This document shows positions 16,194 to 61,306 of a DNA stretch of 64,000 nucleotides, piece by piece. The notes beneath the pieces were generated by a model that saw nothing but the letters and a program-made list of their open reading frames with translations, was not told the DNA's origin and did not search any database. Made by a program: the position numbers and the translations under genes. The stretch's first letter is position 1. The number at the start of each line of letters is the position of its first letter. The stretch comes from Candidatus Poseidoniales archaeon (lineage in GTDB: Archaea > Thermoplasmatota > Poseidoniia > Poseidoniales > Poseidoniaceae), in contig BOYQ01000003.1 of the NCBI GenBank assembly GCA_019651595.1, positions 222,423 through 286,422 of the forward strand, read 5' to 3'.

Positions 16194-16684
16194 TGCACGG
16201 GAGTCGTTCTTGGGCTCCACGTGAACCCCGAGGGGGGTGTTCCGAAGCACCCAGTTGATACACGCTGGAGGTTGGACGAAACGGGTGTGTCGGTGACAAA
16301 CAGAACGACCGCAAGCACCACGGTGGACCGCAGAAAGCCGTCTGTTTGCTTGAGCAACACGTTCTTGAGCACCTGCAGGCCGAAGGCCATCCCATCGCTC
16401 CCGGCACGACCGGTGAAAACATCCTTGTGGATGGCACTTCACCGGGCCAATTCATCGTTGGCGCCCGTTTGAGCATCGGTGAGGTTGAGTTAACCATCAC
16501 CGGGGATGCACCCCCGTGCAAGACGATTCGTGCCTCGTTTGCTGAAGGAACCTTCAACGAATTGAGTCATCGGAAGACCCCGGGACAAACGCGCTGGTAC
16601 GCCAGAGTGGAACAGACGGGCACCGTGCGAATGGGCGATGCACTTGTGTTCCTCAGTGAAGCCGAGCCAACTGGAAGTCCGTGA
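16194..16684 (+). CDS. MOSC-domain protein (YiiM-like), frameshifted
   Basis: The C-terminal ORF 16346-16684 contains …PGTTGENILVDG…IGEVELTITGDAPPCKTI… (MOSC). An upstream frame supplies …KHHGGPQKAV-like residues. Confidence 0.5.
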
Positions 16685-18403
16685 GTTCCCTGAGGGCACG
16701 CAAGGCGGGGTTCTCACCGAGTGCATCCAAGCAGCCGTGGGCCTCTTGATGGAAGTCCTCAGCCATGCTTTTGGCGTAATCCACCGAACCGAGTTCAGCC
16801 AGGGCGGCCAAACCGTCAGCGAGCGATTCAGGGTCAACGGTCTCACCCTTGCCCAACACGGCCAACAGGCGATCTTTCACGGGACCGTCGGGCTGACGAA
16901 GGGCATGGATGATCATGAGGGTCCGCTTTCCTTGAGCGATGTCAGACCCCGCTGGTTTCCCCAAGGTTTCCGAATCGGAGAGAACATCGATGACGTCGTC
17001 CATCAGTTGGAAACACATCCCGAGGGCCTTGCCCCAAGACGCCATGCATTCAACGGTGGCTTCATCTGCTCCGGAAATTCTCGCACCAATTTCCGCACAT
17101 ATCCAAAACATGACGGCGGTTTTCCCCTCAATCATCTCAAGGTAATCCGCTTCTGAAACCTCAAGACGGTCTTCGAATTCAATGTCGAGTTGTTGCCCCT
17201 CGCTCACCCTTCGCACCATCCATGCGATACGGTTCACCAGGGGTGCTACGTCCGTCGGTTCGAGGTTTTCCGCTTGGACCAGGCGCTCAAAGGCGATGGC
17301 CAGCATCGCATCCCCTGCGTTGATGGCGGTCGGCATGCCGTATTCGATGTGGACGGCGTTGCGCCCTCTTCGCAGTTCATCGTCATCCATGATGTCGTCG
17401 TGAACCAAGGTAAAATTGTGAACGGTCTCGATGGCAGCACCGATGTCAAGAAGGCCGGCGTGCGTGTCGCCCACGGCCTTGCCGACCAACCACGGGAGGG
17501 TGGCTCGCATGCGCTTTCCGCCACCTTCGATGAGGTGCATCATGGCATGACCGAGGCGCTCATGACGTGAGGCACGAAGGCTGGATTCGATGCGTGATTC
17601 GATGAGCGGCTTGACTTCCATGATGGAGGTTAACAAGTCTGCACCTTCTGCACCCGGTAGCATGTTGGTGACGTCGCCCATGTCGTGAATTTGCTCATCC
17701 GCAAGTTCTGCAAGTGCTTGTTGGTCGTTAAACGACGCCCACCATGTGGGTTGCATGATGCGAGCAGCGATGCAGCGAAACCATGGGGCAATGGCCTGTT
17801 CTGGCGGTCGCTCTTCGATGAGCATGGCCTCCATTTCGTCGTGGTTGACCCACATGATGTTGGCCACTTCGTTGGGGTTGGGGTTGATTTCGACGTCAGC
17901 ACACATCACCAAGATGTGATCCACTTCCCGTTCTATCCATTCATGGTTCATTCGCGCAGCATAGCGCATCTTCGTCATGAACACCATGTCGTCGGTGGAG
18001 ACGGTCGATGGGTCAATCCCGAGTTCTTGCTCCAGCTTCCGGACGGCCGCACGCTTGACGCCCATGGCATTCTCTGTTTCCATCTCTTCCTGACTGTGCA
18101 AGGGGTGAGAGCAACAAGCGTTGGCCCACACGTTGGGGAACGTCACTTTGTCAGCGGAACGCTGCTGCAACAACATCTCTCCTTCGAATTGAACAAAAGG
18201 ACACTGAAGGCTCGATGGTAATGGCCGGCGCCTTGATGGGTTTCCAATTTCGACATCGGTCCAATGACCGTGTCGTCCTCGGCCACACAAATGACGGCCT
18301 CGGCCATGAGCGTCGCTTGCTCAGCATCGGAGGATTGCAGGGCGTTCATGTCGTCCTGATTGAGTTCGACATGAGGGACGTCATCAATTCCATACCCTGA
18401 CAT
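16653..18403 (-). CDS. fusion protein: type-1 (Nudix-type) isopentenyl-diphosphate isomerase at the N-terminus and geranylgeranyl-diphosphate (polyprenyl) synthase at the C-terminus; one frameshift near 18160
   Basis: IDI part: …HQGAGHYHRAFSVLLFNS… (ORF 18143-18403), then …MLLQQRSADKVTFPNVWANACCSHP…. Prenyl-synthase part: first DDxxD (LVHDDIMDDDELRRGRNAVH) and second DDxxD (FQLMDDVIDV). Apart from the single indel the ORF is continuous across the junction. Confidence 0.75.
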
Positions 18404-23681: not shown

Positions 23682-24707
23682 ATGGCAAAAGACGTGTTGT
23701 ATATTGGAATTGACTTGGGAACCTTCCGTTCGGTGATGGTCTCCTCCGACAGTCACGAAGTGGAAGAATTGACGGTCATTGGAACACCCAAAGACCCCAT
23801 CGCTCGCAACTTCCTGAAGCGAGACGTCCTGTTTGGCAACGAGGCCCTGAAGAATCGCTTGGCTCTGAACCTTTACCGCCCGCTTGAGCTCGGTGTCATC
23901 AAGGACACGCCCGAAGACCGAGAGTTCATCGCTCACTTCATCACCCATCTCATCGGTCTTTCCGACCCCGAGGAATACGACCGTGTCGTGGCCGTGATCG
24001 GTGCACCTGCTGAGGCCAGCCACGTCGATAAGACCGCCATCTTTGATGCTGCTGCCGGATCGGTCAACTCCGCCATGATCATCTCTGAACCGTTTGCTGT
24101 CGCCTATGCGCTTGATATGATCACCCACACCCTCGTCATTGACATTGGCGCCGGAACCACTGACTTGTGCCGCGTCTACGGCACCATCCCTGGCCCCGGC
24201 GACCAAATGCACACCGGCTACGCAGGTGACTACGTCGACAACGCTCTCATCAAGGAGATTCAATCCAAGTACAACGGCGCACAAATCACCAAAGACATGG
24301 CCCGTCGATGGAAGGAGCAGTTCTCCTTTGTTTCCACGGCAGCCCCTGACGAACCCGTGCTGGTGGACTTTTCGATTGAAGGGAAAGCCATGACCTTGGA
24401 CATCACGGACTGCATGCAAGCGGCCTGCGAATCCATCGTTGACCCCATTGTTGAGAACGTCAAGAAACTCATCGCTGGTTCAAATCCAGAATACCACGAC
24501 GAGTTCCGCAAGAACATGGTCCTTGCCGGCGGCGGTTCCTCCATCAAGGGTCTCGGCGCCCTCATTGAGCGCCGTCTTTCTGACATGGGCGACGTCAACG
24601 TCCACGTGGTGGATGACCCGGTTCGATTGGGTGCCATGGGCGGTCTTCGTCTGGCCATGGAAGTTCCCGAAGACATGTGGAAGAACCTGACGCTCGCCTC
24701 CCGCTGA
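23682..24707 (+). CDS. actin-like ATPase (MreB/MamK/Ta0583-type, ASKHA superfamily)
   Basis: Phosphate-1 IGIDLGTFRS. Phosphate-2 VIDIGAGTTD. Adenosine motif VLAGGGSSI. Confidence 0.7.
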   Translation: MAKDVLYIGIDLGTFRSVMVSSDSHEVEELTVIGTPKDPIARNFLKRDVLFGNEALKNRLALNLYRPLELGVIKDTPEDREFIAHFITHLIGLSDPEEYDRVVAVIGAPAEASHVDKTAIFDAAAGSVNSAMIISEPFAVAYALDMITHTLVIDIGAGTTDLCRVYGTIPGPGDQMHTGYAGDYVDNALIKEIQSKYNGAQITKDMARRWKEQFSFVSTAAPDEPVLVDFSIEGKAMTLDITDCMQAACESIVDPIVENVKKLIAGSNPEYHDEFRKNMVLAGGGSSIKGLGALIERRLSDMGDVNVHVVDDPVRLGAMGGLRLAMEVPEDMWKNLTLASR

Positions 24708-30114: not shown

Positions 30115-33013
30115 TTGGAAGAGTTCTGGCACAACCTCACCATCGAGGACAGTCTGGTCGCTCAGCAATCAACCGAACACGGTATCAGCGTTGATGAGGT
30201 GGTTGAGCGAAGGAAGCGATACGGTAGCAACAAGCTGAACGAACCCGAGAAAACCTCGGCCTTTCTCCGGTTTCTTCCCAGTACAACGACCCGCTGAACT
30301 ACCTGTTGATCGGTGCCGCCATCGTTGCGTTTGCTATTAATCCAGACCATCCAGGAGATGCGATTTTCATCTTTCATTGTCCTGACCGCCAACGCGTTCT
30401 TTGGATACTGGCAGGAAAACCAAGCGGAACAAGCCATGGATTCGCTTAAACAAATGTCGATCTCAAATTGTGTGGTCATCCGGGGCGATTACGAGAGCGA
30501 AGTTCCCACGTCTGAATTGGTTCCGGGTGACGTTGTTCGCTTGGAACAAGGCTTGAACGTCCCGGCAGACGTCAGGATGATTTGGTCGCAGCAATGCAAA
30601 GTGGACGAATCGGCGCTGACGGGTGAGTCCCTGACCATCCGGAAATCAACCGATGCGCTTCCTGCTGAGACCGTTTTAGCCGACCGAAACAACATGGCCT
30701 TCATGGGCACGACGATTTCCTCGGGACGCGGTTTGGGGCTGGTGGTAGCGACAGGGATGCAGACCGAACTCGGAAAAATTGCGAGCAACATCGCCGACGC
30801 ACAAACCCCGAAAACGCCGCTTGAACTCAAACTGGAGAGCCTTGGAAAATTCCTCGGGTTCATTGCCCTCATCGTGGCCATTCTTCTGGTCTCACTCAAC
30901 CTCGTGGTCTCCTACGGAAAACCTGGCGTCGACCTGAAAGAAGTGGTCGTCCAGCAGTTCATTGTCGCCATCGCCATCTTTGTAGCCATCGTGCCTGAAG
31001 GCCTGCCCATCATTTTGGTCATCACCCTTTCCTTGGGGATGCGGAACATGGCGCGCCACAAAGCCATCATTCGCCGCATGAAAGCGGTCGAAACCCTCGG
31101 GTCAACCACGGTGATTTGCTCCGATAAAACCGGGACGCTCACCAAGAACCAAATGACGGTGCGGCAAATTCAAACCCTCGATCGAACCTTTGATGTAACC
31201 GGTGAAGGATTTGAGCCCAACGGTGCATTGGTCCGCAACGGAGTGGAACTTACGGATGCCGACCTTCAAAGCCGCCAAGCGGATTTGGGTTTCCGATTGC
31301 TGGGCGCATGTCTCTCGCTTTGCCACAATTCAAACATCGTGAAATCCGAAGGACACTGGCAGGCCATCGGCGATCCAACGGATTCCGCTTGTGCCGTTGC
31401 AGGCTGGAAAATCAACGGCGATGTCAAGAAATTCTCGCACCGCCATCCACGGTTGAATGAGTTCTTTTTTGATTCCGTGCGGAAAAGGATGAGCGTCGTT
31501 CACGAATACGAAGGTGAACGCTGGATCTTCGCCAAAGGGAGCGCAGGAGGGTTCCGAGACATCGCGACCACCAAAATTGTCGACAACGAATACGTACCAC
31601 TCTCGGACGATGACCGCGCTCAAATTTCAGCCATGAACGATGACATGGGTTCGCAAGCCATGCGCGTCATTGCCCTTCTGGCTCGAAAAGTGAACGCCGA
31701 TGAGGACATCGACGACATTGATTCCGTTGAATCAGATTTGGTGTTCTTGGGGCTCATCGGTATCATGGACCCACCTCGTCCTGAGGTCAAGGCTGCGATT
31801 GAGACTTGCCTGCGTGCGGGCATCAAGGTGAAAATGATCACCGGTGATCAGCAGATGACGGCCGCCGCCATCGGTGCTGAATTAAACATCACGTCCGCTT
31901 CGGGCGCATCCTTGGACGGGAAAGAACTCGCATCACTGAGCGATGAAGAACTCATGGAGGCTTCAGGGGAAGTCGCCATTTACTCCCGCGTGACACCCGA
32001 CCAGAAGATGAGAATCGTTTCATCGCTGCAGGAACAAGGGGAAATCGTCGCCATGACGGGGGACGGTGTCAACGATGCGCCTGCGCTTTCGGGCGCCAAC
32101 ATTGGCATCGCCATGGGCATTGCTGGCACGGACGTTGCCAAGGATGCCGCTGACATGGTGTTGCAGGACGATAACTTTGCCAACATTGTCCACGCCGTGG
32201 AAGAAGGACGGAAGATCTACCAAAACATTCGCAACTTTGTCCGCTATCAGGTGTCGACCAACGTCGCAGCCGTTTCCTTGTTGGTGCTCGCAACCTTGTT
32301 TTTCGGGCCCGAGGCTTTGCCGCTCACGGCCACGCAGATTCTGGTGATCAACATCCTGATGGACGGGCCCCCTGCAGTCGCGCTCGGTGTCGAGAAAAAA
32401 CACGGGAGCGTCATGGACCGGCCGCCGCGTCCGGTGGACGAAGGTCTCCCCAACGGCCGAGACATTTCCCTGATCTTTTACTTGGGCGCTGTGATGGTCG
32501 TGGGATCGCTGATGGTCTTCTGGCTGGCAGGCGGGAGCTTAGCCGGTGCTGAACCCTGCACGTTGCGCACCACCGAAACCAGTACAACGGCATTTGACAT
32601 GGAGGCGTGTCTCGCTGGCGAACAAGCCGCCATCGATGACTGGCAATCCATACGCCGACGGCCACTTCCAGCACGCCCAAACCATGACGTTCGCTGTGTT
32701 CATCGTGTACCAGTTGTTCAATGTCATGAACTGCAGATCCAACGAGGAAAGCGTGTTTGAATTGGGCTTGTTCTCGAACCCCGCCATCAATTACGCCTTG
32801 CTCATTTCATCGGGTCTCTTGTTGTTCTTTGTTCAACTTGCAGAGGTATCGATTCCGGTGCTGGGCATTGAAATCGGTTCCCTCTTGCGGACCAATCCAT
32901 TGACTCAGAACGACTGGACGGTGGTTGTCCTGATCGCATCGAGCGTGTTTATCATTGAAGAGTTCCGGAAACTCATCGTCAAATCACGCATCTTTGCTGT
33001 TCGGCGGCGTTGA
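30115..33013 (+). CDS. P-type cation-transporting ATPase (type IIA, Ca2+-ATPase-like), several frameshifts
   Basis: Cation-ATPase N-terminus (…GISVDEVVERRKRYGSNKL…). DKTGTLT phosphorylation site. MITGDQQMTAAAIG and GDGVNDAPAL. The C-terminal TM segment sits in the frame of ORF 32546-33013. Frames shift near 30290-30370 and 32640. Confidence 0.85.
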
Positions 33014-35137: not shown

Positions 35138-36016
35138 ATGACTGAACTTCCGGTGGACGAAGACGGAAATAAAATCGTAAGAATCGGTCATAGCCCGGAC
35201 CCCGATGATGCGTTCATGTTCCACGCCATGACCACCAACGCCTTCCCAACGCCCGGGTACAATTTTGTTCACGAACTCCAGGACATCGAAACACTCAACC
35301 ATCGAGCCATGAATCAAGACCTCGAAGTTTCGGCGGTCTCCATTCATGCCTACCCCGACATCGCCGAGCATTACGCTTTGATGAATTGCGGTGCATCCAT
35401 GGGCGAAGGCTACGGCCCCATGATCGTCTGCAAAGCCGGTGTCTCGGAAGCCGACGCACGAAGCAACACCATCGCCGTTCCCGGATTGAAAACCAGCGCT
35501 TACCTCGGCTTGCGCCTCGCTTGGGGCGATTGTGATGTAGCTGTGGTACCCTTTGACGAAATCATACCTCGCATTCTCGACGGCACGTACCTCAGCGGTC
35601 TGATCATCCACGAAGGTCAGTTGACGTACGTTGACCATGACCTTGACGTGCTCATCGACCTCGGGAAGTGGTGGAACGCACGGACAAACAACTGGCCCAT
35701 GCCCTTGGGCGGAAACGTTGTGCGTCGTGATTTGGGAGAAGACGTCATGCAAGACATCACCAAGTACACCAAGATGAGCATCGAATACGCGCTCGCCTCT
35801 CCCGACGAGGCCCTTGAGTTTGCCAAGGCATGGGGCCGAGGTATTGACGACGAAACCAACCGAGAATTCGTCGGCATGTACGTGAACGACCGGACCATCG
35901 ACTACAAAGAAGAAGGCCGTGCTTCCATTCGACAGTTCATCAAAGAAGGCCAAACCATCGGAATGATTCGGGACGATTTTGACACGGCAACGATGCGATT
36001 CATTGGAGAACCATGA
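35138..36016 (+). CDS. mqnD: 1,4-dihydroxy-6-naphthoate synthase MqnD-like
   Basis: …IRIGHSPDPDDAFMFHAM… MqnD signature. Confidence 0.7.
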   Translation: MTELPVDEDGNKIVRIGHSPDPDDAFMFHAMTTNAFPTPGYNFVHELQDIETLNHRAMNQDLEVSAVSIHAYPDIAEHYALMNCGASMGEGYGPMIVCKAGVSEADARSNTIAVPGLKTSAYLGLRLAWGDCDVAVVPFDEIIPRILDGTYLSGLIIHEGQLTYVDHDLDVLIDLGKWWNARTNNWPMPLGGNVVRRDLGEDVMQDITKYTKMSIEYALASPDEALEFAKAWGRGIDDETNREFVGMYVNDRTIDYKEEGRASIRQFIKEGQTIGMIRDDFDTATMRFIGEP

Positions 36017-36025
36017 GGGAGCGCA

Positions 36026-36514
36026 ATGGAAGCCGAAGGCCGCATACCAAAGGTGAGCCAATACGGCTCGGTCGACCCGGCCCCTCCTGCGCAAGAGGCG
36101 TTGGTCGCCGAACTCACCGCTCGCTTGTGCGATGAAGACGAACCCATGTTTCAACGGATGCGGGCCGTGTTCGCTCTGCGCAACCTTCGCACCGATGAAG
36201 CGTGCCTGGCGCTGTGCCAAGGGTTCGCAAGTTCGAGCGCGCTCCTCCGCCACGAAATCGCCTACGTTTTGGGACAGATGCAAAACACGGCAGCGCTGCC
36301 AACACTGATTCAACGCCTTGAGGACGATGAAGAGCACGTCATGGTCCGTCACGAAGCCGCTGAAGCCATGGGCGCCATTGGCGACCGGTCCGTGATTCCA
36401 TCGCTGGAAAAATACAGCCAAGATTCCCAACCTGAAGTGGCTGAATCTTGCATTGTTGCATTGGATCTATTGGCTTGGGTCGCTGGAGCCGAATTCCATG
36501 AGACCGAGTGTTGA
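36026..36514 (+). CDS. HEAT-repeat protein resembling one half (4 repeats, 2 His-Glu motifs) of deoxyhypusine hydroxylase
   Basis: LRHEIAYVLGQMQ and VRHEAAEAMGAIGD His-Glu HEAT motifs, plus …VDPAPPA…MFQRMRAVFALRN… and EVAESCIVALD. The whole 162-aa protein aligns (from memory) with the C-terminal dyad of eukaryotic DOHH. Confidence 0.55.
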   Translation: MEAEGRIPKVSQYGSVDPAPPAQEALVAELTARLCDEDEPMFQRMRAVFALRNLRTDEACLALCQGFASSSALLRHEIAYVLGQMQNTAALPTLIQRLEDDEEHVMVRHEAAEAMGAIGDRSVIPSLEKYSQDSQPEVAESCIVALDLLAWVAGAEFHETEC

Positions 36515-36777
36515 GCTACCTCAAGTTCAAAGACTGGACCACCTACCGCCCAACAGGAAGGACGCACATGCCTCACGACCATATCCAACTGGCCCAAGCC
36601 CCCAACGGTGAACTCGGGCCCCGATGCCACCACTGCGGCATGCGCCTCACGTTCGGCAACGCCATGGTCGTCGACAAGTACTACATGTGTTGGGAGCACT
36701 ACGTCGAAGCCACCGGTGCGGACACGGCAACGGAAGTTTCAGACGCCGATGAGCGTTTCTGGATGAAGCAGGACTGA
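36508..36777 (+). CDS. small hypothetical Cys/His-cluster protein
   Basis: CHHCG…C.EH arrangement. The start may be the Met at 36568. Weak call. Confidence 0.3.
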   Translation: MLSYLKFKDWTTYRPTGRTHMPHDHIQLAQAPNGELGPRCHHCGMRLTFGNAMVVDKYYMCWEHYVEATGADTATEVSDADERFWMKQD

Positions 36778-38114: not shown

Positions 38115-39122
38115 GTGAGTCCGTTGGGTCTGCGCAGAGGAAAGAAATCCAAGAAGTCGGATGCCTCGCTCCCCCTGCCCGATTTGCCACCACCTGGTGG
38201 TCTTCCTGCCCCGTTGCCCTTGCCACCGGGCGGACCAGCCCTCCCTCCTCTTCCCGGTGCACCAACGCCCGCTGAAGCGCCCGTTCCCGCCCCACTGCCT
38301 GCTCCTCTCCCCGTCCCTGAGGCCACCCCTGCAGCCAACGTCGCACCTCTGCCCCTCCCCACCAACGATCCCGGCACCACGCTGTCGGGCATCACGGAAG
38401 AGAAGGGGTACAACGAACTCTGGGCGAAGCGCTCCGAAAAACCACTGCAGCAGATCTACGGGCACATTGATCGAATCAGCAACAAAGAAGCCGGCTCCCT
38501 CCTCGATCGTTACGCTGACCGCTTCGGCCATTCGCTTGATCGTGAAATCATTGTGATGAGAAAAGCGGCCGTTGAGGAAAAAGTGGCTGAAATCCGAGAC
38601 GCTCCCACCGTTGAACTCATCGATGACGAGCCGACCGAGCCCGTGAGTGAACTCCAGCAAGTCGAAGACGAACTGCGGGCGCTCAAACCGCTTTACCAAG
38701 AAGCGAAATCGCTGGGCGACAAGGAAACGCTCGCCGAACTGACACCCACTCTCCAAGCCTTGATGGCTCGTAGGAAGGCGTTGAAGTCTGGCGATGCGCC
38801 AACCGAGGAACCGGCCGTCGCTGAAACGTCCTCAGACGAAAGCGATGACTTGTTCTCCACGTTCGTGGGCATTGTCGACACCTTGCTGGGCGACCACCTG
38901 CCAGAATCCATCGTCAACGACTTCGTGGCTAGCGAGGACTTTGAAACGTACAGAGAAGTCTTGGGTTCGCCCGAAACAACCGATGAAGAGACGCGAGGGG
39001 CGTTTTACCGTATGGTGGACGACCAACTGGGCAACATGTCGTCGGAATCCATTTCTGCTTTTGTCGAATCAGCAGATTTCGACATCTACCGGGAAATCGG
39101 AGAGCGCTACAAGGATGAGTGA
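38115..39122 (+). CDS. hypothetical protein: N-terminal proline-rich (LP/PLP) low-complexity tract, acidic C-terminal half with an internal duplication
   Basis: PLPAPLP… tract across 38160-38350. Duplicated DFVASEDFETYREV / AFVESADFDIYREI elements. Confidence 0.5.
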   Translation: MSPLGLRRGKKSKKSDASLPLPDLPPPGGLPAPLPLPPGGPALPPLPGAPTPAEAPVPAPLPAPLPVPEATPAANVAPLPLPTNDPGTTLSGITEEKGYNELWAKRSEKPLQQIYGHIDRISNKEAGSLLDRYADRFGHSLDREIIVMRKAAVEEKVAEIRDAPTVELIDDEPTEPVSELQQVEDELRALKPLYQEAKSLGDKETLAELTPTLQALMARRKALKSGDAPTEEPAVAETSSDESDDLFSTFVGIVDTLLGDHLPESIVNDFVASEDFETYREVLGSPETTDEETRGAFYRMVDDQLGNMSSESISAFVESADFDIYREIGERYKDE

Positions 39123-52858: not shown

Positions 52859-54876
52859 AGGCATCGCTCGTGTGTGCATTCTGGTGGCGTGAAATAGAGA
52901 CGGTCCTCTGGAACGAACGTGTCCAGTTGGAGGGTGGATGATGCGCCCTCTTCGACGAACACCACAGATGATGTGCTGGCAGGGAGGTAATCTTCACCCG
53001 TCGACTGTAAACTTAGCCGCAAGACGTGCCCTGCTGGTACTTCTGCGTCCATGGCAAAGAACTCCATTTTCGCGTTGATGGACTCGACGATGGGCGTCCA
53101 CGTTTGAATCTCATCCCCACCGGCATGATACCGCAGGTCCATGATGGCATGACCCAGGTGGATGCAATTACTCTGGTTGTCGCAATCTTCGAGCAGGGCG
53201 TAGAGTTGCCCGCCGAGGCTTGCTGTTGTCACCTCGACATGAACTCGAGGCATACCTGCGATGTAGAGGTCTTCTGCGAGCGGCTCGGTCTCCCACACCG
53301 GCCCAGATGATGCATCGGGCAGAACGGTGGTGGTTCCGGCGATGTTGGTCATGTCCGCTCCCAATTCCAACACCAGTTCAACAGCATCGGCGGGCGGGTA
53401 GCGGTCCTCAATACGCCAGGAACCTTGGTTGGACTGAATCTCAATCCATTGGCCGGGCTGTTCTCCGATCCCCTTGAGGTAATAATCAAACCACTCGAGC
53501 ATGTCTTGCATCCAGTCAAAACGTATCATTTCTGGGAACGCCTCGCCGCCACGACCGCCCAAGTCGGACCGGTCGTCCAATTGAACCGGACGGTCAGGAT
53601 AGTCGTGGTCCCACTGACCAAACAGACCTCTGGCTTCTATTCCAGCATCGATCAGACGGTTGATGGTTGGTACCGCCATGTGGGGGTCAACGTTCCAATC
53701 GTGCATGCCCTGGATAAGGTAAACGCTGCCTTTGTAATTCTCAAGAACCCGGTCGAGGAAGTAGCGCTCAGCCCAGTAGTCCCCGGCGACCTCGGAACCA
53801 AACATGTAGGCGCTGACGCCGGTTCCCGGGCCGATGATGTAATCCGGGCAGATGTTCTGGTAGTCCTCTTCGTCGCCGTCAATACCGTACGACCCGTAGA
53901 CACCGTTGTGCATGATGGGTGCCCGCGCTTCAGAAGAACCGTTTTTCCACATGAGTTCTTTCACGCCAATAAGACCCGAAATCGGGACGATGGTCTTCAG
54001 GTAATCATGCTCGGCCCCGAACATGGCCGCTTGCCAAGGTGTGCTGCCGTCGTAGGATTTGCCAATCAGCGCTACGGCGCCGTTTGACCAAGGTTGTTCT
54101 GCCAACCATCGCACGGCAGCATCGTTCCCGAGCTGTTCGGCATTACCCATCAAATCCATGCAGTGATTGCTCCGTCCGGTGCCTGAGACTGAGATTTGGG
54201 CAAAAGCATAGCCGTGTGGTAGAATTTGGTCAATGAACATCTGACCCAACCAACTACCAGGGACTTCAATCGAAGGGGTTTCGACGCTAGCTTCTTGGAA
54301 GTAAGGACCACTTTCTGCGATCACCGGCACTTGCATTCCTTCGGGCACATCGGGCAGCCAGACGGCGAGGCTAATGAGCCCGTTCGGCGCAGCTCCACCC
54401 TCTTCGAGAGGGAGCGTGTATTCCACAAAATGATGGGTCGAATTCCACTCGTTATCGGTTGGCAGGAGCGAGTACGGCCCAACCTCCAACGCTACGCCAA
54501 ACTCGCCGTCCGTTTCGTATGGAAGGGTGTAGCGCTCCCAAACAGGCACCCGCACGCCTTGTTGCTGTTCCTCTTCCACCACCAGGTTGACAAACGCCTC
54601 TCCAAAGAAGGCCGAGAGCATCAAAAAAACCAGCGACAGCGCCAAGGTCGCCCCCAAGACGACGTTGAATTCTTTGGTGGCTGATGCAGTCGATGATTTG
54701 ACTTCGTCGTCCAGTGAACCGACAATGATGCTCAACTGGTCCACGTCGGTTTTGGTTGATGTTTCAACCAAATCAGCCATCACGACCTCATCGTCCGACA
54801 TGGTGCTTCGCCTCGGGGTCGGTACGGCTGTTCTTGAACATACGCCCGTGGTGCTTTTCGTGCTTTCGAAGAACAA
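52846..54876 (-). CDS. secreted/membrane-anchored S15-family (X-Pro dipeptidyl-peptidase / CocE-NonD) hydrolase
   Basis: N-terminal TM segment. …GKSYDGSTPW… GxSYxG nucleophile. C-terminal beta-sandwich-type region. Confidence 0.7.
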   Translation of the reverse strand: MFFESTKSTTGVCSRTAVPTPRRSTMSDDEVVMADLVETSTKTDVDQLSIIVGSLDDEVKSSTASATKEFNVVLGATLALSLVFLMLSAFFGEAFVNLVVEEEQQQGVRVPVWERYTLPYETDGEFGVALEVGPYSLLPTDNEWNSTHHFVEYTLPLEEGGAAPNGLISLAVWLPDVPEGMQVPVIAESGPYFQEASVETPSIEVPGSWLGQMFIDQILPHGYAFAQISVSGTGRSNHCMDLMGNAEQLGNDAAVRWLAEQPWSNGAVALIGKSYDGSTPWQAAMFGAEHDYLKTIVPISGLIGVKELMWKNGSSEARAPIMHNGVYGSYGIDGDEEDYQNICPDYIIGPGTGVSAYMFGSEVAGDYWAERYFLDRVLENYKGSVYLIQGMHDWNVDPHMAVPTINRLIDAGIEARGLFGQWDHDYPDRPVQLDDRSDLGGRGGEAFPEMIRFDWMQDMLEWFDYYLKGIGEQPGQWIEIQSNQGSWRIEDRYPPADAVELVLELGADMTNIAGTTTVLPDASSGPVWETEPLAEDLYIAGMPRVHVEVTTASLGGQLYALLEDCDNQSNCIHLGHAIMDLRYHAGGDEIQTWTPIVESINAKMEFFAMDAEVPAGHVLRLSLQSTGEDYLPASTSSVVFVEEGASSTLQLDTFVPEDRLYFTPPECTHERCLQAE

Positions 54877-54907
54877 GCCTCAAAGACATCCATACCAAGG
54901 TGGAATC

Positions 54908-56941
54908 ATGGATGAGGATGTGCGGCGCATGCAAGCTGCCGTCCTCGAAGGCATTCCACTGGCGTTGCCGGAGCATCCAGGAATCGATTCGTCCGTTGAC
55001 CACGCACCCAACCGACGGCAAATTCTCACCGCAGAAGAAAAATTGTTGGCCCTTGAAAACGCCCTTCGCTACATTCCACCGCAACACCATGAGTCACTGG
55101 CTGACGAATTCATGGACGAACTCAACACCTACGGGCGCATCATCATGCGGCGCTACAGACCCACCAGCCACCCCATGAAAGCTTACCCGCTGGATGCCTA
55201 TCCCTGCGCCTCACGGCAGGCTGCGTCCATCATGCTGATGATTCACAACAACCTTGATCCCGCTGTTGCGCAATTCCCCCACGAGTTGATCACGTACGGT
55301 GGAAATGGCTCGGTGTTCCAAAATTGGTGCCAGTACCGTTTGGTCATGAAGTACCTCTGTGAGATGACCGACCAGCAGACACTGGTCATGTATTCTGGCC
55401 ACCCTTTGGGACTTTTCCCCTCTGGTCCAGCGGCGCCTCGCGGTGGTGACGAACGGTATGGTCATCCTGAATTATTCGAGTCAAGACGACTACGAACGTA
55501 TGAATGCGCTCGGCGTGACACAGTACGGCCAAATGACCGCTGGTTCCTACATGTACATCGGGCCTCAAGGCATTGTCCACGGCACCACCATCACCTTGCT
55601 GAACGCCGCCAGGCTTCACCTTGGGTTGAGTGATGAATCGAATCTTTCCGGTATCACCTTCATCACCAGCGGCCTGGGTGGTATGTCGGGCGCCCAAGCC
55701 AAAGCCGCCACGATCGCAGGCGCTGCTTGCATCATCGCAGAGACGAACGCTCATGCCGCTCACAAGCGCCACAACCAAGGCTGGTTAACCACGGTCACGG
55801 ACGACATTGACGACGCTATCGACCAAATGGTCCAAGCCGCCAATGACGGAAATGCCATATCAATCGGTTTGATTGGAAACATCGTCGAATTATGGGAACG
55901 ATGCGTAGAGCGAGAGGTTCACGTGGATTTGGGGAGCGATCAAACCAGCCTGCACAACCCGTATCAGGGAGGTTATTTCCCAGCAGATCGAACCTACGAG
56001 GAGAGCGCCACGATGCTGTCCGAAGACCCGGCCCGATTTCGGTCGGAGGTACAGTCCACCCTTCGGCGCCACGCTGCCGCCATCAACACCATGGCAGAAC
56101 GCGGGATGTACTTCTGGGATTATGGCAATGCTTTCCTTTTGGGAAAGGCCTCCCGTGTCGGGCCGATGTGGTCAACGAGGATGGGACCTTTCGTTATCCC
56201 TCCTACGTTGAGGACATCATGGGGCCGTTGTGCTTCGACTTCGGTTTTGGCCCGTACCGTTGGGTTTGCACGAGCGGCGACCCTGCTGATTTGAAGCGGA
56301 CCGATGAAATTGCAGCGGATGTCCTTCGGGGCATGCGTGATGGCGCTCCCGAAGACGTGCGACAGCAAATCAACGACAACCTGCGCTGGATTGAGCAAGC
56401 AGGGGCAAATCAACTCGTCGTTGGAAGCCAAGCCCGCATCCTCTATGCTGACGATGTAGGCCGACGAAACATTGCACTGGCGATGAATCAAGCCATCGCT
56501 TCTGGAGAATTGCAGGGACCGGTGGTGTTGGGTCGAGACCACCACGATGTATCGGGGACCGACAGCCCCTACAGAGAAACGGCCAACATCCGAGATGGCT
56601 CAATGTTCACGGCTGACATGGCCGTCCACAACGCCATCGGTGATGCCTTCCGCGGCGCCACATGGGTGAGTCTCCACAACGGTGGTGGCGTGGGCTGGGG
56701 GGAGGTGATTAACGGTGGTTTTGGATTGCTGTTGGACGGCACGGCCGAAGCCGAGGAGAAACTCTCATCCATGCTTCATTGGGACGTCAACAACGGCGTC
56801 GCTCGACGTGCATGGGCGAGAAACCCTGGTGCTCGCTCTGCCGTGGTACGCGCCATGGAAGCCGAAGACGAGTTGACCGTCACCCTCCCGCACCTCGTCG
56901 AGTCCTCCGTGCTCGACCGCTTCCGAGGTGATGGACAGTGA
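54908..56941 (+). CDS. hutU: urocanate hydratase, frameshifts near 55430 and 56160
   Basis: Three frames carry …YGGNGSVFQNWCQY…, …GPQGIVHGTTITL…SGLGGMSGAQ…, …HHDVSGTDSPYRETANI…LHNGGGVGWGEVINGG…. Confidence 0.85.
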
Positions 56942-59364: not shown

Positions 59365-59479
59365 TGCCCTACCTCGACGATGCTACGCTCGATGCAGGTT
59401 CTAAGGAATTCCGCCTACAACAAGGTGCAAGTCATCAATCATTATATTGCCCTTCTTCGTGGAAATAAGTGGTGGAACG

Positions 59480-61306
59480 ATGACGGATGAAGAAAATGAA
59501 TCGGTTGCCATGGCTGAGTGCGGTGCTTGTCGAGCCGTCATCCCCATCGATTCGACGGAATGCCCCGAGTGTGCAACGAAATTTTCGGGTGTATCCGAAG
59601 ATGCACTTGGGGAGTGCGGGGGCTGTCAAGCACTGGTCCCCCTCGACTCGACACGTTGCCCCGAGTGTGGTGTTCTCTTCGTAGCGGACGACGTCGTTGA
59701 TATCCTTCGCCAGTGGGTTGCAGACACCGGCATTAACATCCGGAAGTTGTTCGACAAGTTCGATGAAAATGACGACGGCACCATTGATTCAGATGAACTC
59801 AAGCGTGGTTTACTCAGTTTGAACCTCGCCGACCTTCCACCATCGCAGGTTGACCGCCTTGTCGCCGAAATCGATGCAGACGGTAACGGCGTCATCGATC
59901 TTGATGAGTTTGACGCCATCCTGATGGGGTCGAACGCTGCACAGGAGGAGGCGCCCGCACCCGTAGAGACCGACGGAACGGCCGAAGATGATACATCCGT
60001 TCTTGAGGGCGAAGATGACGGCGGAGAGGCTGACGAAGAATCAGCTGATGCAGAGAGCGATGCCGAGGAAGCAGATGCATCGGTCGAAGAAGAGGCTGAA
60101 GAGGAGGCCGAAGACGAGGCTGAGGAGGAGGCAGAGGATGATGAAAGCGCTGCGGAGGAAGAAGAAGCCGGTGAAGAAGAAGATGAGGCACACGGCATCG
60201 ACGATGAAGCGTTTGACATTGACGAAGAAGAGGATTCACCGGAAGCCGACGCGGACGAAGAAGAACCTCATCGTCCGCTGGCCGCGCTGTCCGCGCTGGC
60301 GGACCTGATGGATGAACATGACATCTCAGCGCAACGCCTGTTCAATGAACTCGATGCAGACGGCAACGGTGTCGTATCCATTAGCGAACTGAAAAGCACG
60401 ATTGCAGAGAAGTACGGTGATGATCTCGACCTTGAGCAAGTGAACGCCATCATGGAGGGGGCTGACGTCGACGGTGACGGTACCATCGACATCACCGAGT
60501 TCATCGGTTCGCTGGAAGATTACGAAACCATGGAGGAACTGGTAGAGGAGAAAGTCTTCCCGTCTCCGTGGCAGAAGCGCATGATGTCCAAATCGTGGAA
60601 CGACACGGTATGGCCCATCCTCCACGTTGCGTTCGGCATCATGGTTGCGCTCTTTATCGCCAACGGGATGTTTGGATTTGTCGATGGAACCGGTGGCAAT
60701 GTCGCCTACATTCCGAATGATTCTGGTTTGATACCAAGTGGGAACATTGTTGAGGGCGACATTTACCCGTGCGACGAGAAGTACCAGATGGACGGTTGTC
60801 GAAACTCGCTCACACCCCTAGCAGGTGCGAACGGCTCCCTTTCAATGCCAACCGGTTTCTACTGGGACGGCATCATGCTGATCGCCCTCTCGGTCATCGG
60901 AATGGCGACTACCCTGTTCTTGCATCTCGTGAAAGCCCCCGAGTGGCGCGCAAGGGCCAAAGCCATGAAAGAGTTTGAAACGGACAAAGCCGAAGCAGCA
61001 GAATCGGCCGAGGAATCCAGCGATGAGACGGACGATGATGAAGCGGTTGCGGACGAAGATGAAACCGAAGATGATGAAGCCTACGAAGAGGACGATGAAC
61101 TCGAGGATGACGTCGACGAAGACACGGATGACGAGGCCGAAGAAGAAGGGATTGACATTGGTTCGCACATTGGATTGGTGTTTGACGACGAAGAGGTCTT
61201 TGGGGTCATCGTAGAATTTGATGACGATGAGGAAACAGTGACCATCGAAGAAGATGGCACTGGCGACCTTGTGACCGGCTACCAGGAAGACATGTTCCTT
61301 GAGTGA
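59480..61306 (+). CDS. membrane-anchored calcium-binding protein: double zinc ribbon + 4 EF-hands + 2 TM helices + poly-acidic tail
   Basis: Zinc ribbons CGAC…CPEC and CGGC…CPEC. Canonical EF-hand loops DENDDGTIDSDE, DADGNGVIDLDE, DADGNGVVSISE, DVDGDGTIDITE. Hydrophobic segments around residues 395-420 and 470-495. D/E-rich linker and tail. The long ORF begins at 59447; the first Met in a good context is at 59480. Confidence 0.7.
   Translation: MTDEENESVAMAECGACRAVIPIDSTECPECATKFSGVSEDALGECGGCQALVPLDSTRCPECGVLFVADDVVDILRQWVADTGINIRKLFDKFDENDDGTIDSDELKRGLLSLNLADLPPSQVDRLVAEIDADGNGVIDLDEFDAILMGSNAAQEEAPAPVETDGTAEDDTSVLEGEDDGGEADEESADAESDAEEADASVEEEAEEEAEDEAEEEAEDDESAAEEEEAGEEEDEAHGIDDEAFDIDEEEDSPEADADEEEPHRPLAALSALADLMDEHDISAQRLFNELDADGNGVVSISELKSTIAEKYGDDLDLEQVNAIMEGADVDGDGTIDITEFIGSLEDYETMEELVEEKVFPSPWQKRMMSKSWNDTVWPILHVAFGIMVALFIANGMFGFVDGTGGNVAYIPNDSGLIPSGNIVEGDIYPCDEKYQMDGCRNSLTPLAGANGSLSMPTGFYWDGIMLIALSVIGMATTLFLHLVKAPEWRARAKAMKEFETDKAEAAESAEESSDETDDDEAVADEDETEDDEAYEEDDELEDDVDEDTDDEAEEEGIDIGSHIGLVFDDEEVFGVIVEFDDDEETVTIEEDGTGDLVTGYQEDMFLE

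What the first reader, a model, noticed from the sequence alone, without database searches (positions are those of the whole stretch)
36026..36514. Half-size deoxyhypusine-hydroxylase-like protein in an archaeon
The 162-aa ORF carries two HEAT-embedded His-Glu motifs: LRHEIAYVLGQMQ and VRHEAAEAMGAIGD. From memory it aligns along its whole length with the second 4-repeat dyad of eukaryotic DOHH (…VDPAPPA…RMRAVFALRN…RHE.AYVLGQ…MVRHE.AEA.GAIG…). Eukaryotic DOHH is an internal duplication of such a dyad and uses four His-Glu pairs to hold a di-iron centre. A single-dyad protein would have to homodimerise, and would look like the ancestral form. DOHH homologues are generally regarded as absent from archaea, and how archaeal aIF5A becomes hydroxylated is unresolved. 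No N-terminal half lies adjacent: mqnD ends 10 nt upstream.
Basis: partly seen in the sequence, partly recalled or inferred. Interest (0 to 1): 0.72.

Follow-up and report, generated by a model that had tools for sequence, protein, structure and literature searches.

The report
Half-size deoxyhypusine hydroxylase in marine archaea
A marine Group II archaeon (Poseidonia) carries a well-conserved gene for exactly one half of the eukaryotic enzyme that completes the hypusine modification of translation factor 5A; the literature says archaea lack this enzyme, and its sequence looks like the ancestor of both halves of the eukaryotic protein.

Summary
ORF 36026-36514 (+) encodes 162 aa forming four HEAT hairpins with two His-Glu motifs 33 residues apart. 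It matches human DOHH (PDB 4D4Z) at E=1.6e-67. Residues 4-157 align without gaps to the C-terminal half, and residues 30-152 to the N-terminal half. Every mapped iron ligand and every deoxyhypusine-binding residue is invariant.

The host is a Poseidoniaceae archaeon. The gene is single-copy in all 87 loci examined, syntenic and under strong purifying selection. At least 398 prokaryotic species genomes hold a relative, and the best 80 are all Poseidoniales-type contigs. No N-terminal half lies next to it or elsewhere in the window.

In its core the protein is neither a C-half nor an N-half. It scores equally on profiles of either half, whereas real halves differ by 26-31 bits. Only its termini are C-like.

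Most likely it is a homodimeric di-iron hydroxylase acting on deoxyhypusinated aIF5A. Dimerisation, iron binding and substrate are inferred, not shown. A conserved two-gene unit with mqnD keeps a quinone-related substrate open as a rival. Papers from 2012 to 2021 state that archaea have no DOHH, although IMG's pipeline already labels these proteins 'deoxyhypusine monooxygenase'. I rate it a new variant of a known kind, of high interest.

The parts
36026..36514 (+). Half-size DOHH-like gene: 162 aa, four HEAT hairpins (helices 23-35, 41-54, 57-68, 72-85, 88-99, 105-118, 121-129, 136-155)
   Evidence: ORF. PDB phmmer hit to 4d4z, E=1.6e-67. AF2 model with pLDDT 88.7. Top Foldseek hit 4d4z, TMq 0.78, 49% identity. 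dN/dS about 0.03-0.06.
36068..36088 (+). N-terminal arm S15-V-D-P-A-P-P21. In the alignment of 30 archaeal homologues, S15-P20 are invariant and P21 is at least 90% conserved. It matches the inter-domain linker motif of eukaryotic DOHH. Human P152, mutated to Leu in DOHH disorder, maps to P21.
   Evidence: The motif DP[AS]P lies between the halves in 72/90 eukaryotic DOHH and before the N-half in 1/90. No vestige was found in N-half N-termini. The arm has low pLDDT in the monomer model. P152L is listed in PMC11203672.
36245..36283 (+). His-Glu motif 1, LRHEIAYVLGQMQ. H76/E77 correspond to human H56/E57 and H207/E208. G83 corresponds to G63/G214.
   Evidence: Gapless alignments. Invariant. Residue roles from PMC9117371.
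36344..36385 (+). His-Glu motif 2, VRHEAAEAMGAIGD. H109/E110 correspond to human H89/E90 and H240/E241. It lies 33 residues after motif 1.
36015..36021 (+). Shine-Dalgarno-like GAGGGAG overlapping the mqnD stop codon, 5-11 nt before the ATG. It suggests translation from a shared transcript with mqnD (inference).
   Evidence: Read directly from the sequence.
35138..36016 (+). mqnD-family gene (PF02621). It lies directly upstream on the same strand in 85/87 loci and moves together with the DOHH-like gene as a two-gene unit.
   Evidence: Pfam. Synteny. In-situ inversion of the pair in L086/L087.
36568..36777 (+). 69-aa Cys-rich zinc-ribbon-like ORF, conserved directly downstream in 84/87 loci. 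Its relation to the DOHH-like gene is unknown.
   Evidence: (weak PF27112 hit). No Pfam hit at 1e-5.

Best explanation
The gene encodes a genuine single-dyad homologue of deoxyhypusine hydroxylase. Each 162-aa chain folds into four HEAT hairpins and offers one iron site (H76, H109, E110), a second acidic residue (E77) and G83. Two chains would pack face to face as a symmetric homodimer. That would reproduce the 'two layers of repeats' sandwich formed by the N- and C-halves of eukaryotic DOHH, and would build a non-haem di-iron centre at the interface. The invariant N-terminal SVDPAPP arm probably reaches across to the partner subunit, or to the substrate. [quoted passage not shown] What is shown: homology, fold, motif geometry, residue conservation, single copy in each locus examined, purifying selection and lineage-wide synteny. 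What is inferred: dimerisation, di-iron binding, and aIF5A as the substrate.
For: Homology is specific to DOHH: E=1.6e-67 to 4D4Z against 120 bits or less for designed HEAT proteins. After the Poseidoniales orthologues, the next database hits are eukaryotic DOHH at 45-56% identity. AF2 gives a confident four-hairpin solenoid whose best PDB match is 4D4Z. All six iron-anchoring positions and the six deoxyhypusine-binding positions defined by mutagenesis (PMC9117371) map onto H76, E77, G83, H109 and E110. These are invariant in 30 diverse archaeal sequences. Human disease positions P152, N184, P223 and I249 (PMC11203672) map to the conserved P21, N53, P92 and I118. The HE-HE spacing is 33 in all 163 half-size proteins, as in both eukaryotic halves. 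One chain supplies only half the ligands of a di-iron site, and the eukaryotic active site lies between the two halves (PMC9040561). No second DOHH-like ORF exists in the window. No second copy exists in any of the 85 related loci scanned, and the 80 genome loci come from 80 different assemblies. dN/dS is about 0.03-0.06 with saturated synonymous sites. The archaeal branch is short. Its core is as close to eukaryotic C-halves (48%) as those are to each other (49%), and closer to N-halves (44%) than those are to each other (42%). This is the pattern expected for retained function, not for neofunctionalisation. Retention of the non-ligand acidic residue E77 fits a polyamine-like cationic substrate.
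Against: No aIF5A or DHS gene lies in the 64-kb window, and no aIF5A motif was found in the related loci. Their presence in this organism therefore rests on literature statements that all archaea have them. The gene is tightly linked to mqnD in 85/87 loci and is inverted together with it, which could indicate a quinone-related role. Early amino-acid analyses found deoxyhypusine, not hypusine, in the Euryarchaeota examined, including Thermoplasmales. No biochemical or proteomic data exist for Poseidoniales.
Confidence: 0.6

Rival explanations
1. Same fold and di-iron chemistry, but a different substrate. A DOHH-derived hydroxylase was recruited to (mena)quinone or naphthoate metabolism and is co-expressed with mqnD.
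For: mqnD lies directly upstream on the same strand in 85/87 loci, with a gap of 2-9 nt or a 4-nt overlap. In the 60%-identity subgroup the mqnD-DOHH pair is inverted in situ as a unit, while mqnA and the radical-SAM gene stay in place. An SD-like sequence overlaps the mqnD stop. From general knowledge, di-iron hydroxylases are used in other quinone pathways, for example Coq7.
Against: From general knowledge, the known futalosine pathway needs no hydroxylase. The residues that bind the deoxyhypusine amines in human DOHH (E57/E208, E90/E241, G63/G214) are invariant here. The sequence has not accelerated away from eukaryotic DOHH, which acts only on eIF5A. The whole neighbourhood, which includes PriS and MetRS, is syntenic, so adjacency carries limited weight.
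Confidence: 0.12
2. A rival about origin, with the function unchanged. The gene is a secondarily truncated C-terminal half of a eukaryotic DOHH, acquired by horizontal transfer into the ancestor of Poseidoniales. It is not a pre-duplication relic.
For: The distribution seen is confined to one archaeal order, while published papers describe DOHH as present in all eukaryotes (PMC3306375). The SVDPAPP arm and the C-terminal xEF tail are shared only with C-halves. Outgroup-rooted NJ groups the archaeal clade with C-halves in 57/200 replicates, with N-halves in 18/200, and recovers N+C in 1/200. In 40 of the 163 bootstrap trees that recover archaeal monophyly, the archaeal clade sits among a few C-halves.
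Against: In the 118-column core the archaeal proteins show no C-half signature. The C-HMM minus N-HMM score is +1.1 ± 2.2 bits, against +31.1 ± 6.2 (minimum 15.1) for held-out real C-halves. Where the N and C consensus differ, the archaeal consensus sides with N at 17 columns and with C at 9. This includes E137, which is found in 69% of N-halves and 0% of C-halves. No eukaryotic lineage stands out as a donor: the best mean identity is 54%. GC content is uniform. The rooting is prone to long-branch attraction because N-halves evolve faster.
Confidence: 0.3
3. A monomeric, mononuclear non-haem iron protein that uses H76/H109/E110 as a 2-His-1-carboxylate triad, with chemistry different from DOHH.
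For: One chain supplies exactly two His and one Glu ligand. No partner half is encoded nearby.
Against: The ligand-bearing face of a single four-HEAT layer would be solvent-exposed. In DOHH the site exists only between two layers. Nothing is known of a co-substrate site. Strong conservation of the partner-facing DOHH residues and of the arm fits a sandwich better.
Confidence: 0.06
4. A non-catalytic HEAT/PBS-lyase-type scaffold protein, as the NCBI annotation ('HEAT repeat domain-containing protein') and the Pfam hits would suggest.
For: Pfam and NCBIfam return only generic HEAT_PBS/HEAT_2 and sub-threshold NblB/CpcE hits.
Against: Those libraries returned no DOHH-specific family for this protein. 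The generic HEAT proteins recovered have no HE motifs and score 13-46 bits against the family profile, against 130-180 bits for the DOHH halves. The HE motifs are invariant in every half-size homologue checked.
Confidence: 0.02

Closest known systems
Eukaryotic deoxyhypusine hydroxylase (human DOHH, PDB 4D4Z/4D50; yeast Lia1; EC 1.14.99.29)
   Same: It shares the HEAT-hairpin solenoid and the His-Glu motifs embedded in hairpins 2 and 3, spaced 33 residues apart. The iron ligands and the deoxyhypusine-binding Glu and Gly residues are identical. The VDPAPP motif and the C-terminal tail are shared. Identity to either half is 44-48%, and the structural match has TMq 0.78.
   Different: It has one dyad arm (162 aa, 4 repeats, 2 HE motifs) instead of two fused arms (about 300 aa, 8 repeats, 4 HE motifs), so the active site must be built between chains. 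It occurs in an archaeon. Its core is equidistant from the N- and C-halves. A homodimer would carry two VDPAPP arms, whereas the eukaryotic enzyme has one.
Generic PBS-lyase HEAT-like repeat proteins (Pfam PF03130/PF13646: CpcE/F, NblB, YibA, MTH187, designed alphaReps)
   Same: They share the repeat type and fold, and these are the only family-library hits.
   Different: They have no His-Glu metal motifs and much lower similarity (25-29% identity). They are non-catalytic scaffolds or lyase subunits.
Homodimeric half-size enzymes versus fused pseudo-dimers, for example retroviral aspartic protease versus pepsin (analogy from general knowledge; not homologous)
   Same: The same proposed logic applies. 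A symmetric homodimer builds one active site on its dyad axis, and a duplicated, fused relative does the same with two diverged halves.
   Different: The fold and chemistry are unrelated. For the archaeal protein the dimer is inferred, not shown.
Four-helix-bundle di-iron hydroxylases that act on macromolecules (for example the tRNA hydroxylase MiaE, PMC7515727, listed)
   Same: They perform O2-dependent non-haem di-iron hydroxylation of a modified residue on a translation component.
   Different: The fold is a ferritin-like bundle, not HEAT, with carboxylate-rich ligands. There is no sequence relation.

Membership tests
Deoxyhypusine hydroxylase (DOHH/Lia1) | HEAT-repeat alpha-solenoid fold | tested here: met
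   AF2 gives 8 helices forming 4 hairpins, with core pLDDT about 98. The best PDB structural match is 4D4Z. Pfam finds HEAT_2 and HEAT_PBS.
Deoxyhypusine hydroxylase (DOHH/Lia1) | Strictly conserved His-Glu motifs that anchor iron (human H56, H89, E90 / H207, H240, E241) with fixed spacing | tested here: met
   H76, H109 and E110 align without gaps to both sets. They are invariant. The spacing is 33 in 163/163 half-size proteins, as in eukaryotic halves.
Deoxyhypusine hydroxylase (DOHH/Lia1) | Residues required to bind the deoxyhypusine side chain (E57, E90, E208, E241, G63, G214) | tested here: met
   They map to E77, E110 and G83, all invariant. Roles are from PMC9117371, which prints G65; the alignment places this Gly at 63.
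Deoxyhypusine hydroxylase (DOHH/Lia1) | Eight HEAT repeats in a symmetric dyad within one polypeptide, with four HE motifs | tested here: not met
   The protein has only four repeats and two HE motifs in 162 aa. There is no adjacent or frameshifted second half. The 159-173 aa length is conserved in more than 100 homologues.
Deoxyhypusine hydroxylase (DOHH/Lia1) | Closest relatives are DOHHs rather than other HEAT proteins (reciprocal similarity) | tested here: met
   The PDB top hit is DOHH by about 110 bits. The first hits outside Poseidoniales are eukaryotic DOHHs such as Catenaria. The contigs encoding the two full-length hits examined are eukaryotic.
Deoxyhypusine hydroxylase (DOHH/Lia1) | Di-iron centre formed between two four-repeat layers (here this would require a homodimer) | not testable with these tools
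Deoxyhypusine hydroxylase (DOHH/Lia1) | O2- and Fe-dependent hydroxylation of deoxyhypusine on (a/e)IF5A | not testable with these tools
   This needs an enzyme assay or mass spectrometry of aIF5A.
Deoxyhypusine hydroxylase (DOHH/Lia1) | Co-occurrence with DHS and IF5A in the same genome | tested here: inconclusive
   Neither gene is in the 64-kb window, and no aIF5A motif was found in the roughly 0.9 Mb of related loci. The rest of the genome is not available. The literature states that all archaea have both.
PBS lyase HEAT-like repeat proteins (PF03130 / PF13646) | Matches the Pfam repeat models above the gathering score | tested here: met
   HEAT_PBS scores 59.1 bits (cut-off 20.9) and HEAT_2 scores 60.4 bits (cut-off 27.7). 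This is membership of a repeat superfamily and says nothing about function.
Phycobilin lyase / NblB equivalogs (NCBIfam) | Score above the curated equivalog cut-off | tested here: not met
   NblB scores 30.9 against a cut-off of 300, and CpcE scores 24.5 against 330.
Futalosine-pathway menaquinone enzymes (Mqn) | Homology to a known Mqn enzyme | tested here: not met
   There is no Mqn family hit. The only link is conserved adjacency to an mqnD-family gene.

The most novel reading that the evidence does not exclude
The Poseidoniales protein is a living representative of the pre-duplication, homodimeric form of DOHH. It would have split from the eukaryotic line at or before the divergence of the N- and C-halves and evolved slowly since. 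On this reading the hypusine hydroxylation step is not a purely eukaryotic invention. It existed in an archaeon before the last eukaryotic common ancestor, or was exchanged with one. One of the most abundant archaeal groups in the surface ocean would then carry true hypusine made by a minimal 162-aa enzyme.
Probability: 0.3. Interest if true: 0.85.

Novelty: new variant of a known kind. Interest (0 to 1): 0.72.

Why it matters
Papers and reviews from 2012 to 2021 repeat that DOHH is absent from archaea and that the archaeal route to hypusine is unsolved. This gene is a clear DOHH homologue in a globally abundant archaeal order, so that statement needs qualifying. It yields a testable prediction: Poseidoniales aIF5A should carry hypusine, unlike the deoxyhypusine reported for other Euryarchaeota.

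Its single-dyad architecture is the simplest conceivable version of the only known HEAT-repeat oxygenase. DOHH has been cited as a case of an O2 enzyme emerging from a non-catalytic repeat scaffold (PMC9040561). A 4-repeat homodimer is the missing intermediate in that story, and a small, tractable model for the unusually stable peroxo-diiron centre.

The finding does not explain hypusine in Crenarchaeota, which showed no sign of this gene in what I could see. The direction of transfer between archaea and eukaryotes remains open.

Tried and rejected

2. Foldseek against AFDB50, intended to find named half-size relatives in other prokaryotes, was not possible because the library is not installed.

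All are Poseidoniales-type contigs at 62-88% identity. Whether any of the other 318 lie outside this order (Asgard, MGIII, bacteria) is unknown. The listing limits of the protein searches (top 120 or 150) have the same effect.

4. The viral contig scan found no relatives, so there is no sign of a viral vector.

5. Rooting with generic HEAT_PBS segments weakly favours archaeal+C. I do not trust this result: the outgroup is very distant (13-46 bits) and N-halves evolve faster, which invites long-branch attraction. NJ bootstrap values are low throughout. No ML phylogeny program was available.

6. I searched for a vestigial VDPAPP arm in front of eukaryotic N-halves. Only helix 1 aligns, with no arm remnant.

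7. I searched for a second DOHH-like ORF, aIF5A (GKHGxAK) and DHS in the window and in the related loci. Nothing was found.

8. I considered eukaryotic contamination or a chimeric contig and rejected it. The same archaeal synteny appears in 87 loci from independent assemblies, and GC content is uniform.

9. I considered that two full-length ~250-283 aa hits on long contigs might be prokaryotic. Their neighbours are eukaryotic genes: an IP3 receptor, eIF2B-epsilon and C2H2 zinc fingers.

10. The original DOHH papers (Park 2006, Kim 2006, Wolff 2007) are not held in the library. Residue roles are therefore cited from the 2021 review.

11. I ran no further search on aIF5A or DHS. Without a Poseidoniales-like query the top-120 list would probably not reach this order, and the answer would change little.
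Full report
**1. The observation**

ORF 36026-36514 (+) starts with ATG and encodes 162 aa. It contains LRHEIAYVLGQMQ (residues 74-86) and VRHEAAEAMGAIGD (residues 107-120). The upstream gene is a PF02621 MqnA/MqnD-family protein at 35138-36016. It ends 9 nt before the ATG, and a GAGGGAG Shine-Dalgarno-like element overlaps its stop codon. There is no space for a hidden N-terminal half. A six-frame profile scan of the whole 64-kb window finds no second DOHH-like segment.

**2. Is it DOHH-like or just a HEAT protein?**

- Pfam and NCBIfam report only generic HEAT_PBS/HEAT_2 hits and sub-threshold NblB/CpcE hits. Neither returned a DOHH-specific family.
- Against all PDB sequences the top hit is human DOHH (4D4Z) at E=1.6e-67. 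Residues 4-157 align without gaps to the C-terminal half including the VDPAPP linker (129.7 bits). Residues 30-152 align without gaps to the N-terminal half (103 bits). Designed alphaRep proteins follow at 120 bits or less.
- An AlphaFold2 model built on 30 homologues has mean pLDDT 88.7 (about 98 across the core). It shows eight helices forming four HEAT hairpins. Residues 1-20 and the last few residues are undefined.
- Its best structural match in the PDB is again 4D4Z, with TMq 0.78 and 49% identity.

Using the gapless alignments, the human iron ligands H56/H207, H89/H240 and E90/E241 map to H76, H109 and E110. The deoxyhypusine-binding residues E57/E208, E90/E241 and G63/G214 (roles from PMC9117371) map to E77, E110 and G83. 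All of these are invariant in 30 archaeal sequences spanning 58-88% identity. The human disease positions P152, N184, P223 and I249 (PMC11203672) map to the conserved P21, N53, P92 and I118. The His-Glu spacing is 33 residues in all 163 half-size proteins checked. The same spacing holds in 92/95 N-halves and 86/95 C-halves of eukaryotic DOHH.

**3. Host, distribution, and whether the gene is real**

- Close homologues are named Poseidonia sp., Poseidoniales or Thermoplasmatota by NCBI. JGI/IMG calls them 'deoxyhypusine monooxygenase'. The lineage is Thermoplasmatota; Poseidoniales; Poseidoniaceae, i.e. Marine Group II.
- More than 100 clusters of 159-173 aa proteins share 60-99% identity with the window protein.
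- A scan of one genome per GTDB species found 398 encoded relatives. The best 80 (62-88% identity) come from 80 different assemblies, nearly all labelled Poseidoniales, Poseidoniaceae or unclassified Euryarchaeota. One is labelled 'Verrucomicrobiales' but carries the full archaeal synteny, so it is a mis-binned contig.
- No locus holds two copies.
- The order radical-SAM (MqnE/C-like), mqnA, mqnD, DOHH-like, 69-aa zinc-ribbon ORF, PriS primase is conserved. mqnD lies directly upstream in 85/87 loci.
- GC content is uniform across the region.
- Against orthologues 82-88% identical in protein (L006-L012), pN is 0.08-0.12 while pS is 0.68-0.78, which is saturated. Where dS can be computed, dN/dS is about 0.03-0.06.

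The gene is therefore real, vertically inherited within this order and under strong purifying selection. It is not contamination, a pseudogene or an assembly artefact. This matters because the window does contain frameshift-split genes elsewhere.

**4. Relation to the two halves of eukaryotic DOHH**

I split about 100 eukaryotic DOHHs into N- and C-halves and aligned them to the archaeal family profile.

Mean identities over the 118-column core:

| Comparison | Mean identity |
|---|---|
| archaeal vs C-half | 48% |
| archaeal vs N-half | 44% |
| N-half vs C-half | 39% |
| N-half vs N-half | 42% |
| C-half vs C-half | 49% |

The archaeal protein is closer to each half than the halves are to each other.

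Held-out profile test:

| Sequences | Bits on N-profile | Bits on C-profile | C minus N |
|---|---|---|---|
| Real N-halves (51, held out) | 144.5 | 118.8 | -25.8 ± 8.9 |
| Real C-halves (51, held out) | 132.5 | 163.6 | +31.1 ± 6.2 (minimum 15.1) |
| Archaeal proteins (108) | 155.4 | 156.4 | +1.1 ± 2.2 |

The archaeal proteins are neutral between the two profiles, and they score higher on the N-profile than real N-halves do.

- At the 45 core columns where the N and C consensus differ, the archaeal consensus agrees with N at 17, with C at 9 and with neither at 19.
- N-type states include E137 (69% of N-halves, 0% of C-halves). C-type states include F42, S141 and V144.
- In contrast, the termini are C-type. 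The invariant SVDPAPP arm equals the inter-domain linker motif, which is present between the halves in 72/90 eukaryotes. It is absent before N-halves, and I found no vestige there. The C-terminal xEF tail resembles the eukaryotic C-terminus.

**5. Phylogeny**

In an NJ tree the archaeal, N-half and C-half sequences form three separate clades, but bootstrap support is weak. Among the 163 of 300 replicates that recover archaeal monophyly, the clade is:

- sister to essentially all C-halves in 79,
- nested among a few C-halves in 40,
- sister to all N-halves in 30.

With very distant generic HEAT_PBS outgroups, archaeal+C is recovered in 57/200 replicates, archaeal+N in 18/200 and N+C in 1/200. 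Long-branch attraction of the outgroup to the faster N-halves would give the same picture. No eukaryotic sequence stands out as a donor. The two full-length hits on long contigs that I checked are eukaryotic by their neighbours.

My reading is as follows. The archaeal lineage joins the DOHH tree close to the N/C duplication node and has evolved slowly. Descent from a modern-type eukaryotic C-half is disfavoured by the profile test. Whether the lineage predates the duplication, or is an early truncated C-half, is not resolved. Nor is the direction of transfer.

**6. Mechanism**

One chain carries only one iron site's worth of ligands. In eukaryotic DOHH the di-iron site is sandwiched between the two four-repeat layers (PMC9040561; PMC9117371). 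No partner half is encoded nearby, and each locus examined holds one copy.

The simplest working model is therefore a symmetric homodimer that rebuilds the same sandwich. It would bind two irons, activate O2 and hydroxylate deoxyhypusine on aIF5A. The invariant arm is disordered in the monomer model, so it probably contacts the partner subunit or the substrate. All of this paragraph is inference. Neither aIF5A nor DHS lies in the window. Their presence rests on published statements that all archaea have them.

Poseidoniales are generally described as aerobic surface-ocean heterotrophs (my own background knowledge), which suits an O2-dependent enzyme. Early analyses found mainly deoxyhypusine in the Euryarchaeota examined, including Thermoplasmales. 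The model therefore predicts a lineage-specific upgrade to hypusine.

**7. Main functional rival**

The DOHH-like gene and mqnD behave as a two-gene unit. The gap is 2-9 nt, or the genes overlap by 4 nt. In a subgroup at 60% identity the pair is inverted in place while the flanking genes stay put. This could mean a quinone-related substrate.

I rate this at about 0.12 for three reasons.
- The deoxyhypusine-binding residues are invariant.
- The sequence shows no acceleration away from eIF5A-specific eukaryotic enzymes.
- From general knowledge, the futalosine pathway has no known hydroxylation step.

**8. Prior knowledge and novelty**

Papers from 2012, 2016, 2018 and 2021 state that DOHH is absent from archaea or that no orthologue has been found. 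Full-text searches that combined DOHH or deoxyhypusine with Asgard, Marine Group II or Poseidoniales found nothing relevant. IMG's automated annotation already labels these proteins 'deoxyhypusine monooxygenase'. The homology therefore sits unremarked in databases. The half-size architecture, the N/C-neutral sequence and the conflict with the literature appear to be undescribed.

Verdict: new variant of a known kind; interest 0.72.

Noticed in passing
window 30313-33013 and 54587-56941: Two genes are split by frameshifts. The first is a P-type cation ATPase (Cation_ATPase_C positions 2-75 in one ORF and 79-175 in the next). The second is urocanase, spread over three overlapping ORFs in frames 2/0/2. 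A twin ENA contig whose name ends in '_pilon' is even more fragmented (mqnD, primase and ATPase all in pieces). This suggests long-read indel errors rather than pseudogenes.
   Followed up: partly
window 36568-36777 (+): A 69-aa Cys-rich ORF (CHHCG...CWEH) is conserved immediately downstream of the DOHH-like gene in 84/87 loci. In a homologue it gave only a weak hit to PF27112 YrzR_Zn_ribbon. Its function is unknown. The mechanical ORF list gives a longer 89-aa GTG version that overlaps the DOHH-like stop codon.
   Followed up: partly
window 38115-39122 (+): A 335-aa ORF of unknown function has an extremely proline-rich N-terminus (PLPLPDLPPPGGLPAPLPLPPGGPALPPLPGAP...). Polyproline and PPG runs are the classic motifs whose translation depends on a/eIF5A. 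It has no Pfam hit. ORFs without Pfam hits occupy the same position in other loci.
   Followed up: no
L086 5645-10486 and L087 (60%-identity subgroup): The two-gene block mqnD + DOHH-like is inverted in situ relative to radical-SAM/mqnA on one side and the primase on the other. The pair therefore moves as a unit.
   Followed up: partly
L034 (NZEQ01000006.1, labelled 'Verrucomicrobiales bacterium ARS100'): This contig carries the complete archaeal synteny (radical SAM, mqnA, mqnD, DOHH-like, Zn-ribbon ORF, PriS, MetRS) at 77% identity. It is almost certainly a mis-binned Poseidoniales contig in a bacterial MAG.
   Followed up: yes
window 59447-61306 (+) and 23682-24707 (+): There is a 619-aa protein with multiple EF-hand calcium-binding domains, and an MreB/Salactin-type actin homologue. 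I noted both as eukaryote-flavoured families in this archaeon and did not examine them further.
   Followed up: no
window 16653-18290 (-): A 545-aa fusion of a NUDIX domain with a polyprenyl synthetase. It is possibly related to isoprenoid or quinone side-chain synthesis, in the same window as the mqn genes.
   Followed up: no
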